Below the pieces are notes generated by a model. The model did no database searches and had not been told where the DNA came from. It was given only the letters and a program-made list of their open reading frames with translations. This document shows, one piece after another, positions 26,193-28,306 of a DNA stretch of 31,903 bases. Both the position numbers and the translations under genes were made by a program. How positions within the stretch are numbered: position 1 is the stretch's first letter; each line of letters opens with the position of its first letter. Origin of the DNA: a virus (taxonomy: Duplodnaviria; Heunggongvirae; Uroviricota; Caudoviricetes); IMG/VR virus record IMGVR_UViG_648276649_000004. One strand, written 5' to 3'.

Positions 26193-27503
26193 ATGGGTTT
26201 TTCATCAGCCCGAAATTTGGGAAGGGACATATCGGCAGGATTTTCCCCACCACGTCGCATGCCGATTTCGGAGGCTGTTAAAAAATTCATGCGTGTTCCC
26301 AAGGGGGCTGGTAACTCGGTGCCATGGGATCCTGAACTGACACCCTACATCATTGAGCCCATGAACTGCCTGGCATCGCGTGAATACGATGCGGTGATTT
26401 TTGTTGGTCCTGCGCGAACAGGGAAGACCATTGGTCTGATCGATGGATGGATTGTCTATACCATCGTTTGCGATCCTTCGGACATGCTCGTTGTGCAGAT
26501 GACCGAAGATAAGGCCCGCGAGCATTCTAAAAAGCGCCTCGACAGAACGTTCAGAAGCAGTGCGGCGGTAAAGAAAAGAATGAGTCCACGTCGTAACGAC
26601 AATAATGTCCATGATAAGACGTTCAGGGATGGCTCGTTCCTTAAAATTGGTTGGCCCTCGGTCAACATTATGTCGTCGTCGGATTACCGGTTTGTCGCCT
26701 TAACCGATTACGACCGTTTTCCGGAGAATATCGACAGCGAGGGTGATGGTTTCTCCCTGGCCTCAAAACGTACCACCACATTTATGTCCGCCGGGATGAC
26801 TCTGGTGGAGAGCTCGCCGGGACGTGACATCTGCGACAGCAAATGGCGACGTAAGTCGCCTCATGAAGCGCCACCGACGACTGGTATTCTTTCCCTTTAC
26901 AATCGTGGTGACCGCCGCCGCTGGTACTGGCCATGTCCGCACTGCGGTGAATATTTTCAGCCAGCTATGGATGCCATGACCGGCTACCGTAATGAACCGG
27001 ATCCCTTTAAAGCCAGTGAGGCGGCGTATCTACTTTGCCCACACTGCAGCGGCATTATCACTGCGGAGAAAAAGCGTGAGCTCAATAGTGCAGGAGTCTG
27101 GTTGCGTGAAGGTCAGGTCATTGATCGTAACGGCAACGTTTCCGGTGAACCGCGCCGCTCCCGTATCGCCAGTTTCTGGATGGAAGGGCCAGCTGCTGCG
27201 TATCAGGCCTGGGCGCAACTGGTTTACAAATTACTGACTGCAGAACAGGAGTATGAAGCGACAGGAAGAGAAGAAACACTCAGGGCGGTTATCAACACCG
27301 ACTGGGGATTACCTTATCTTCCCCGCGCCAGCATGGAGCAACGAAAAAGTGAACTGCTTGAGCAGCGGGCAGAGCCAGTTCCTTCCCGCAGTGTGCCAGA
27401 TGGCGTTAATTTCCTTGTGGCGACAGTGGATGTGCAGGCGGGACGTCATCGCCGTTTTGTGGTTCAGGTACCGGAGTCGGAAGTTGCCGGACCCTGCAGA
27501 TGA
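26193..27503 (+). pseudogene. Terminase large subunit (lambda gpA-like), C-terminally truncated at about 430 aa
   Basis: AGGAGG ribosome-binding site. The N-terminal ATPase region is present (Walker A-like VGPARTGKT), but the frame ends after ...[18 protein letters not shown], where a full-length lambda-type large subunit would continue for roughly 200 more residues. Confidence 0.75.
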
Positions 27504-28306
27504 AGGCGCATTACAGAAATGGTGGTCTGTTCTACCGTTCTTCAAGAGACGGTTATGGTTTTGAGGAAGGCTGGGCAGAAGTTTATACCTCGAAAAATCT
27601 TCCACCAGAAAGCTACCCAGTCGGCGCACCAATCCCGTGGCCATCAGATACCGTTCCGTCTGGTTATGCCCTGATGCAGGGGCAGACTTTTGACAAATCT
27701 GCCTACCCAAAACTTGCAGCCGCTTATCCGTCAGGCGTGATCCCTGATATGCGTGGCTGGACGATTAAGGGCAAACCTGCCAGTGGTCGGGCCGTATTGT
27801 CTCAGGAACAGGACGGCATTAAATCGCACACCCACAGCGCCAGCGCATCCAGTACGGATTTGGGGACGAAAACCACATCGTCGTTTGATTACGGAACCAA
27901 ATCCACGAATAACACCGGGGCGCATACCCATAGTATTAGCGGGACCGCAAATAGTGCCGGTGCGCACCAACACAAGAGTTCCGGTGCATTTGGTGGCACG
28001 AACACGAGCATTTTCCCTAATGGTTATACCGCGATTTCAAATCTAAGCGCGGGGATTATGAGCACAACAAGCGGTAGTGGCCAGACTCGTAATGCAGGGA
28101 AGACATCATCAGATGGTGCTCATACCCACTCGCTGTCCGGCACTGCTGCAAGCGCAGGCGCACATGCACATACTGTCGGTATTGGTGCTCATACGCACTC
28201 CGTTGCGATTGGCTCACATGGACACACCATCACCGTTAACGCTGCTGGTAACGCGGAAAACACCGTCAAAAACATCGCATTTAACTATATTGTGAGGCTT
28301 GCATAA
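27500..28306 (+). pseudogene. Side tail fibre C-terminal fragment (Stf-like), 268 aa ORF lacking its N-terminal portion
   Basis: Gly/Ser/Thr/His-rich tail-fibre repeats (GAHTHS..., GAHQHKS..., [24 protein letters not shown]) and a conserved C-terminus ...[11 protein letters not shown]; begins right at the terminase truncation point. Confidence 0.65.

What the first reader, a model, noticed from the sequence alone, without database searches (positions are those of the whole stretch)
26193..28306. Large terminase subunit truncated and joined to a tail-fibre C-terminal fragment: head and tail genes deleted
The large terminase ORF stops after about 430 aa and the next ORF is a tail-fibre C-terminus. 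The portal, protease, capsid, tail tube, tape measure and baseplate genes that normally lie between them are absent. The prophage cannot make virions, yet it keeps intact-looking integrase, RecET, KilR, SieB, RalR, the full lysis cassette and bor, the pattern of a domesticated cryptic prophage.
Basis: partly seen in the sequence, partly recalled or inferred. Interest (0 to 1): 0.45.

Follow-up and report, generated by a model that had tools for sequence, protein, structure and literature searches.

The report
Deletion scar in a defective prophage
An E. coli prophage has lost about 20 kb of head and tail genes in one internal deletion that joins a truncated large-terminase gene, out of frame, to the end of a side tail-fibre gene; this is ordinary prophage decay and public genome records already annotate it as two pseudogenes.

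Summary
ORF 26193-27503 holds the first 426 codons of a 699-aa gpA-type large terminase. Its ATPase domain is complete, but only 95 of 294 nuclease-profile positions remain. At 27470|27471 it is joined to codon 856 of a 1117-aa side tail-fibre gene. The join shares 2 bp (TA; 6 of 7 bases match) and is out of frame, so the terminase frame reads 10 foreign codons and stops at 27501-27503. ORF 27500-28306 merely starts at an internal Met, so no fusion protein is made.

E. coli GF3-3 has a structurally complete prophage at the same rspB/ydfJ (Qin) site. Compared with it, 19,839 bp are missing: 17 whole genes from W to Lom, plus parts of the terminase and stf genes. Strain E14 carries a different, 16.1-kb deletion at this site, and K-12 Qin a third one (nohA|stfQ). 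The exact junction occurs in 21 of 5,426 complete E. coli genomes, where PGAP already calls both genes pseudogenes.

One addition: the window is a hybrid. Its left arm is Rac, next to ttcA. Its right arm is the Qin-site prophage, next to ydfJ'. The crossover lies at 23759-23866, inside the lysozyme gene. This is most simply a Rac x Qin inversion.

"Domesticated" is not shown by any test here. Low interest.

The parts
25645..26184 (+). Small terminase subunit (DUF1441 type), intact, 179 aa
   Evidence: Pfam DUF1441, E 1.7e-44. 100% identical over 179 aa to phage cdtI gp01.
25428..25500 (.). Region collinear with the ends of the phage cdtI record (cdtI 46989-47021, then cdtI 1 at window 25461). 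Probable cos / packaging start (inferred).
   Evidence: That cdtI coordinate 1 is the cohesive end is assumed, not tested.
26193..27470 (+). terL': native codons 1-426 of a 699-aa gpA-type large terminase. The ATPase domain is complete (Walker A is GPARTGKT). The nuclease domain is cut after about one third.
   Evidence: Pfam. 99.3% identity to cdtI TerL residues 1-426. PGAP: 'terminase gpA endonuclease subunit, incomplete, missing C-terminus'.
27469..27470 (.). Deletion junction. The dinucleotide TA is shared by both parental sequences (terL GGTAACGGG, stf TATACCGGA). The break is 27470|27471.
   Evidence: Three-way alignment and raw sequence. BLAST pieces overlap at 27469-27474.
27471..27503 (+). 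Ten out-of-frame codons ([10 protein letters not shown]) plus a TGA stop, read from stf DNA in the terminase frame
   Evidence: Translation; frame arithmetic.
27471..28306 (+). stf': the 3' end of a side tail-fibre gene, from codon 856 of a 1117-aa protein. It has the Collar domain and His-rich fibre repeats. The only available start is the internal ATG at 27500 (268-aa ORF).
   Evidence: Pfam. Alignment to stfR of E14 and GF3-3. 96% identical to K-12 stfQ from 27582 on. PGAP: 'phage tail protein, incomplete, missing N-terminus'.
28306..28887 (+). Tail-fibre assembly gene tfaQ, intact, 193 aa
   Evidence: Pfam Caudo_TAP, E 2.8e-42; annotated tfaQ; 96% identical to K-12 tfaQ.
23469..24639 (+). 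Lysis cassette: holin (71 aa), lysozyme (23684-24181), Rz (24178-24639), with Rz1 embedded at 24398-24580
24671..24964 (-). bor/iss lipoprotein gene, 97 aa
   Evidence: Pfam Lambda_Bor.
23759..23866 (.). Crossover interval between the Rac-type sequence on the left and the Qin-site-type sequence on the right, inside the lysozyme gene
   Evidence: All 22 sites that tell the two types apart up to 23758 are Rac-type. All such sites from 23867 on are Qin-type.
781..2016 (-). intR, next to the 3' part of ttcA (1-729). This is the left end of the element and is Rac's attachment side.
30620..31903 (+). ydfJ', a host gene truncated by the prophage. This is the right end of the element (about 30628) and is Qin's attachment side.

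Best explanation
This is a deletion scar, not a working device. A lambdoid prophage of the cdtI/Tritos packaging type sat at the E. coli rspB/ydfJ (Qin) site. It lost its whole morphogenetic block through illegitimate recombination at a 2-bp microhomology (TA; 6 of 7 bases match around it). The deletion runs from codon 426 of the large-terminase gene to codon 856 of the side tail-fibre gene. That is 19,839 bp in a structurally complete sibling at the same site. The join is out of frame. The terminase remnant keeps its ATPase domain, but it loses two thirds of the nuclease domain and the C-terminus, gains 10 foreign residues and stops. The tail-fibre remnant lacks the N-terminal domain that anchors a fibre to the tail, and it could be translated only from an internal Met.

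Shown: the junction, the domain content, the missing genes, the distribution among genomes, and the existing pseudogene annotation. Inferred: the element cannot cut cos DNA, package DNA or build heads or tails, although its lysis, recombination and exclusion genes remain open.

Later, or in a related strain, the right arm that carries the scar became joined to the left arm of Rac. This happened by homologous crossover inside the shared lysozyme gene.
For: Domain truncation and the full-length 699-aa and 1117-aa relatives. Base-level junction. A complete sibling prophage at the same chromosomal site, with 17 whole genes lying between the two breakpoints. Phage cdtI has the same gene order and a TerL 99% identical. 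No cdtI structural protein other than TerS and TerL 1-426 matches the window. The exact junction is in 21 complete genomes; every other genome matches only one side, with the switch at the shared TACCGG. All of the roughly 19 junction-carrying genomes listed have it next to ydfJ. PGAP marks both genes incomplete. Independent deletions at the same locus exist in E14 (gpW'|'lom, 16,082 bp relative to cdtI) and in K-12 (nohA|stfQ). The hybrid is shown.
Against: Nothing contradicts the deletion reading. Three points stay open. The order of events is unknown: one 19.8-kb step, or a 3,848-bp deletion nested in an E14-like 16-kb deletion. Flanking identities are mosaic and do not decide this (terL part 99.3% to GF3-3 and 97.5% to E14; stf part 95.1% and 96.5%). 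Loss of function is inferred from domain content and was not measured. The ATGA overlap of the terminase stop with the ATG at 27500 would allow some coupled translation of the fibre remnant.
Confidence: 0.93

Rival explanations
1. The scar arose in two steps. First came an E14-like deletion from the end of the W-like gene into lom (16.1 kb). Then a second, 3,848-bp deletion from terL codon 426 to stf codon 856 swallowed the first junction.
For: E14 has exactly such an intermediate at the same site, with the same right end. The window differs from it by one clean 3,848-bp gap with the same TA overlap.
Against: The window and E14 differ by 1.4-3.5% in the flanks, so E14 is not a direct ancestor. 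The terL part is closer to GF3-3 and cdtI, which are undeleted. The second deletion would erase all trace of the first, so the present sequence cannot tell the two routes apart.
Confidence: 0.3
2. The remnants are kept because they are useful. The Stf C-terminal fragment plus Tfa might block a receptor for other phages, or serve as a recombination reservoir for incoming lambdoid phages. TerS, the TerL ATPase fragment and cos might interfere with packaging by related phages.
For: Three independent deletions at this locus all keep the stf 3' end and tfa. A chimeric tail-fibre remnant of cryptic prophage e14 (StfE2) is reported to block T2 adsorption (PMC12529663). Lambda recombines with stf/tfa of Qin and Rac at about 2e-6 (PMC3945230). 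The ATGA overlap would permit coupled translation.
Against: There is no Shine-Dalgarno sequence at a usable distance before the ATG at 27500. There is no promoter-like site on the + strand between 24600 and 28300. There is no pin gene and no Pin crossover site, whereas the e14 case needs an inversion. All 21 copies are identical, so selection cannot be measured. Retention of genes at the far end of a prophage is also what random internal deletions would give.
Confidence: 0.07
3. The 436-aa ORF is a complete member of a shorter terminase family, or the junction is an assembly artefact.
For: None beyond the fact that the ORF is open.
Against: The nuclease profile is cut at 95 of 294 positions. 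Relatives 99% identical continue for 273 more codons. The last 10 residues are stf DNA read out of frame. The same junction is in 21 complete genomes and in several independent draft assemblies.
Confidence: 0.01

Closest known systems
Cryptic prophage Qin of E. coli K-12 (the nohA - stfQ - tfaQ region next to ydfJ)
   Same: Same chromosomal site (ydfJ' at the right end). stfQ and tfaQ are 96% identical to window 27582-28888. A packaging gene abuts a tail-fibre C-terminal fragment, and all head and tail genes are missing.
   Different: K-12 has a Nu1-type small-terminase remnant (nohA) joined to a 320-aa StfQ. It also keeps pinQ and ydfK. The window has a DUF1441 TerS plus 426 codons of a gpA TerL, joined 41 codons further into stf, and has no pin. 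The two junctions are independent events. The window's left arm is Rac, not Qin.
The same locus in E. coli AR_0128 and 20 other complete genomes
   Same: 100% identical over 25500-29500, including the junction, in a native Qin-site prophage (rspB - int ... ydfJ'). PGAP annotates both genes as incomplete pseudogenes.
   Different: Their left arm is the Qin type (dicB, dicA, hokD), with an IS1 just upstream of the holin gene. The window has the Rac left arm instead.
Structurally complete relatives: the prophage at the Qin site of E. coli GF3-3, and phages cdtI, Tritos and HannyBb
   Same: TerS and TerL are 99% identical. The gene order TerS-TerL-W-portal-protease/capsid-...-J-Lom-Stf-Tfa shows what once lay between the two breakpoints.
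   Different: They retain the 19.8 kb that the window lacks.
Large chromosomal inversions by recombination between homologous prophages (E. coli O157:H7; Iguchi et al. 2006, as cited in PMC6379469)
   Same: A single homologous crossover between two lambdoid prophages that lie in opposite orientation joins the left flank of one to the right flank of the other.
   Different: Here only one of the two recombinant junctions is visible. None of 5,426 complete E. coli genomes shows this Rac/Qin hybrid.

Membership tests
gpA-type large terminase (Pfam GpA_ATPase + GpA_nuclease) | N-terminal packaging ATPase domain | tested here: met
   PF05876, profile positions 2-247 of 247, E 1.7e-81. The Walker A motif GPARTGKT is visible in the translation.
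gpA-type large terminase (Pfam GpA_ATPase + GpA_nuclease) | Complete C-terminal endonuclease domain and full length (about 640-700 aa) | tested here: not met
   PF20454 is matched at positions 1-95 of 294 only. There are 426 native codons, against 699 in relatives 99% identical. It is therefore a truncated pseudogene of this family, not a working member.
Lambdoid side tail fibre (Stf) | N-terminal tail-attachment domain (phage_tail_N) and shaft/trimerisation region | tested here: not met
   Both are absent from the 268-aa ORF and present in the 1117-aa relative.
Lambdoid side tail fibre (Stf) | C-terminal Collar domain and fibre repeats, followed by a tfa chaperone gene | tested here: met
   Collar E 1e-12; Phage_fiber repeat; Caudo_TAP gene directly downstream.
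Qin-site cryptic prophage | Right end inside ydfJ, with stfQ/tfaQ-type genes next to it | tested here: met
Qin-site cryptic prophage | Left arm next to rspB with int, dicB, dicF, dicA and dicC | tested here: not met
   The window's left arm is Rac next to ttcA.
Rac prophage | Left end at ttcA with intR, xisR, ralR, recT, recE, kilR and sieB | tested here: met
   99.8-99.9% identity to the Rac of EC28 and ATCC 43896 over window 1-23758.
Rac prophage | Right arm with trkG, Rac's own packaging and head genes, stfR, tfaR and pinR | tested here: not met
   After the lysis genes the window carries the Qin-site arm. ATCC 43896 shows the native Rac continuation, with trkG and P22-like head genes.
Domesticated (selected) defective prophage | Evidence of purifying selection or of a host benefit from the retained genes after inactivation | not testable with these tools
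   All copies of the junction region are identical. Differences from other relatives may predate the deletion.

The most novel reading that the evidence does not exclude
The 268-aa tail-fibre C-terminal fragment is translated by termination-reinitiation at the ATGA overlap with the terminase remnant. Folded by the intact Tfa, it then acts as a receptor-masking anti-phage factor, as reported for the e14 remnant StfE2. On this reading, the repeated survival of stf 3' ends plus tfa in independent Qin-site deletions reflects selection.
Probability: 0.05. Interest if true: 0.5.

Novelty: already known. Interest (0 to 1): 0.12.

Why it matters
It matters little beyond correct annotation. The case is a cleanly mapped step in prophage decay, with an undeleted sibling and two other independently deleted siblings at the same chromosomal site. 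That could serve as a small worked example of how cryptic prophages such as Qin arise. The side observation is somewhat more useful: one element combines a Rac left arm with a Qin-site right arm. It points to a rearrangement of roughly 200 kb around the replication terminus in the source strain. It also means that the element's integrase and its two ends no longer belong together.

Tried and rejected
1. A complete short terminase was rejected by the domain coverage and the full-length relatives.
2. Structural genes elsewhere in the window: none found by tblastn with 21 cdtI proteins or in the annotation of near-identical records.
3. A Pin/Gin-type invertible segment as in e14 or K-12 Qin: the crossover sequence TTGGTTTGGGAGAAGG has no match even with 3 mismatches, and there is no pin gene.
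4. An own promoter for the fibre remnant: no + strand promoter-like site in 24600-28300, and the counts are below the shuffle expectation.
5. A search for the Rac/Qin hybrid in complete genomes: none of 5,426 covers 19000-31903 or 22400-26400 in the hybrid form. The two 82% hits (GF3-3 and MJ-T): GF3-3 is an ordinary Qin-site prophage with a similar lysis region; MJ-T was not inspected.
6. AR_0128 as the parent of the hybrid was rejected. Its own Rac has lost the Q, lysis and head region to IS elements.
7. Testing for selection on the remnants was dropped, because the junction-bearing copies are identical.
8. Technical: several fetched loci (L003, L009, L010) never reached the script machine. 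I re-fetched regions or used DNA alignment instead.

Full report
**What is at the coordinates.** The window holds ORF 26193-27503 (+, 436 aa) and ORF 27500-28306 (+, 268 aa), followed by a 193-aa ORF at 28306-28887.
- Pfam finds a complete GpA_ATPase domain in the first ORF (E 1.7e-81), but only positions 1-95 of 294 of GpA_nuclease.
- The second ORF has a tail Collar domain and a fibre repeat.
- The third ORF is a Caudo_TAP tail-fibre assembly protein.
- The ORF upstream (25645-26184) is a DUF1441 small terminase.
- A relative in E. coli strain E14 has a 699-aa terminase with the whole nuclease profile. It also has a 1117-aa tail fibre with the phage_tail_N and Gp34_trimer domains, which the window ORF lacks.

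**The junction.** I aligned the window against the E14 terminase and tail-fibre genes.
- The window follows terL up to ...GTGGTTCAGGTA (27470). From CCGGAGTCGGAAG (27471) on it follows stf.
- The dinucleotide TA (27469-27470) is present in both parents. The surrounding bases are TAACGG in terL and TACCGG in stf.
- Position 27470 ends codon 426 of terL. In stf the break falls at the start of codon 856.
- The two frames differ. The terminase frame reads ten stf-derived codons ([10 protein letters not shown]) and stops at TGA 27501-27503.
- The 268-aa ORF is simply the part of the stf frame downstream of an internal ATG at 27500. That ATG overlaps the stop as ATGA.
- No Shine-Dalgarno sequence lies at a usable distance. 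No + strand promoter-like site lies between 24600 and 28300.

No fusion protein is encoded.

**What is missing.** Phage cdtI (47 kb) and phages Tritos and HannyBb carry TerS and TerL that are 99% identical. The order in cdtI is TerS, TerL, head-tail adaptor, portal, protease/capsid, decoration, tail completion genes, major tail, G/T, tape measure, M, L, K, I, J, Lom, side fibre.

tblastn of 21 cdtI structural proteins against the whole window finds only TerS (100%) and TerL residues 1-426 (99.3%).

E. coli GF3-3 is the most informative comparison. It has a prophage at the same chromosomal site (rspB ... ydfJ') with the complete block. Window 27470 aligns to position 5188 of locus L017, and window 27471 to position 25028. 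So 19,839 bp are absent:
- the last 273 codons of terL;
- 17 whole genes, from the W-like gene to lom;
- the first 855 codons of stf.

**Other states of the same locus.**
- Strain E14, also at rspB/ydfJ, keeps terL and stf whole. It has a different junction, between the end of the W-like gene and the inside of lom, which removes 16,082 bp relative to cdtI. Relative to E14 the window lacks 3,848 bp.
- K-12 Qin has a third junction, nohA|stfQ. Its stfQ and tfaQ are 96% identical to window 27582-28888.

All three deletions therefore keep the stf 3' end and tfa. Whether the window's scar arose in one step or as a deletion nested in an E14-like one cannot be decided. The flanks are mosaic.

**Distribution and prior annotation.** A 300-bp probe centred on the junction is matched end to end in 21 of 5,426 complete E. 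coli genomes. About 3,000 others match only the left half (query 1-154) or only the right half (query 149-300), which is the expected signature of a unique deletion. All of the roughly 19 junction-carrying genomes listed have it in a native Qin-site prophage next to ydfJ. RefSeq (PGAP) already labels the genes 'terminase gpA endonuclease subunit, incomplete, missing C-terminus' and 'phage tail protein, incomplete, missing N-terminus'. The finding is therefore already on record.

**The element is a hybrid.**
- Window 1-24567 matches the Rac prophage of many strains at 99.9%. It runs ttcA, intR, xisR, rcbA, ralR, recT, recE, kilR, sieB, a cargo block of transporter genes, Q-region genes, TolA-like genes and lysis genes.
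- Window 23442-31903 matches the Qin-site prophage of AR_0128, with only one mismatch after 23758.
- In a four-way alignment, every site that tells the types apart is Rac-type up to 23758 and Qin-type from 23867 on. This is one clean switch inside the lysozyme gene.
- The native Rac continuation is trkG followed by P22-like head genes, not a gpA terminase.
- Rac and Qin lie in opposite orientation in AR_0128 and in K-12. A crossover between them would therefore invert the region between them rather than delete it. Such prophage-mediated inversions are known (PMC6379469, citing Iguchi et al. 2006).
- No complete genome in the collection has this hybrid.
- The exact hybrid lysozyme protein is found on a 42.2-kb draft contig, ADWV01000030.1 of GCA_000179175.1, with the same gene order. 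This is evidently the window's source. It is also found on short contigs of a few other assemblies.
- A chimeric contig cannot be excluded from the window alone.

If the hybrid is real, the left end is Rac's and the right end is Qin's, so IntR/XisR could not excise the element (inference).

**Function.** The best-supported reading is loss of function.
- The terminase remnant cannot cut cos or dock on a portal. This follows from what is known of gpA-family terminases: nuclease activity and prohead binding lie in the C-terminal part.
- There are no head or tail genes.
- The fibre remnant lacks its attachment domain.

'Domesticated' implies selection, and I could not test that because all junction-bearing copies are identical.

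Two published results keep a functional reading of the stf/tfa remnant alive at low probability. A chimeric tail-fibre remnant of e14 blocks T2 adsorption (PMC12529663). Lambda acquires DNA from the stf/tfa regions of Qin and Rac by recombination (PMC3945230). The window, however, has no pin gene and no Pin site.

**Verdict.** This is an ordinary, already annotated prophage deletion scar. Interest is low. The Rac/Qin hybrid context is the only mildly unusual feature.

Noticed in passing
window 1-31903; crossover at 23759-23866: The element is a hybrid: a Rac left arm next to ttcA and a Qin-site right arm next to ydfJ', with a single clean switch inside the lysozyme gene. None of 5,426 complete E. 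coli genomes has this arrangement. The likely source is draft contig ADWV01000030.1 (GCA_000179175.1). It implies either an inversion of roughly 200 kb across the terminus region or a chimeric contig.
   Followed up: partly
window about 730-780 (left end) and about 30628 (right end): The left attachment side is Rac's and the right one is Qin's. The intact-looking IntR/XisR therefore probably cannot excise the element (inference only).
   Followed up: no
window 11640-17896: A cargo block sits inside the Rac arm, between the replication and Q regions: a BCCT transporter, a DUF2254 protein, a LysR regulator, a gamma-glutamylcyclotransferase and an MFS transporter. The same block is present in the Rac of EC28, ATCC 43896 and AR_0128.
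   Followed up: no
window 22243-22671 and 22822-23217: Two ORFs with TolA C-terminal-domain similarity lie just upstream of the holin gene. They are also present in Qin-site prophages (GF3-3, E14). Their role is unknown; they might act as decoys for TolA-dependent phages or colicins.
   Followed up: no
window 29424-29573 and about 30237-30290: Short remnants of further tail-fibre-assembly C-termini (..AWKKYRVLL.. and ..LWIKYRVLLN..) lie downstream of tfaQ. There is no pin invertase gene and no Pin crossover site, unlike K-12 Qin. The single mismatch to AR_0128 after 23758 lies here (29448).
   Followed up: partly
window 25428-25500: The sequence is collinear with the joined ends of the phage cdtI record (cdtI coordinate 1 aligns to window 25461). 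The packaging site (cos), TerS and the TerL ATPase part all seem to be retained, so a cdtI- or Tritos-like helper phage might recognise this site.
   Followed up: partly
L001 17198-17895 (AR_0128), just left of the point that aligns to window 23442: In AR_0128-type genomes an IS1 sits directly at the left edge of the similarity to the window, immediately upstream of the holin gene. In addition, AR_0128's own Rac has lost its Q, lysis and head genes between IS3 and ISSen4 copies (L009).
   Followed up: partly
L006 35864|35865 (E14): An independent 16,082-bp deletion at the same Qin site joins the end of the W-like gene to the inside of lom, leaving terL and stf whole. It is a second decay state of the same prophage family.
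   Followed up: yes
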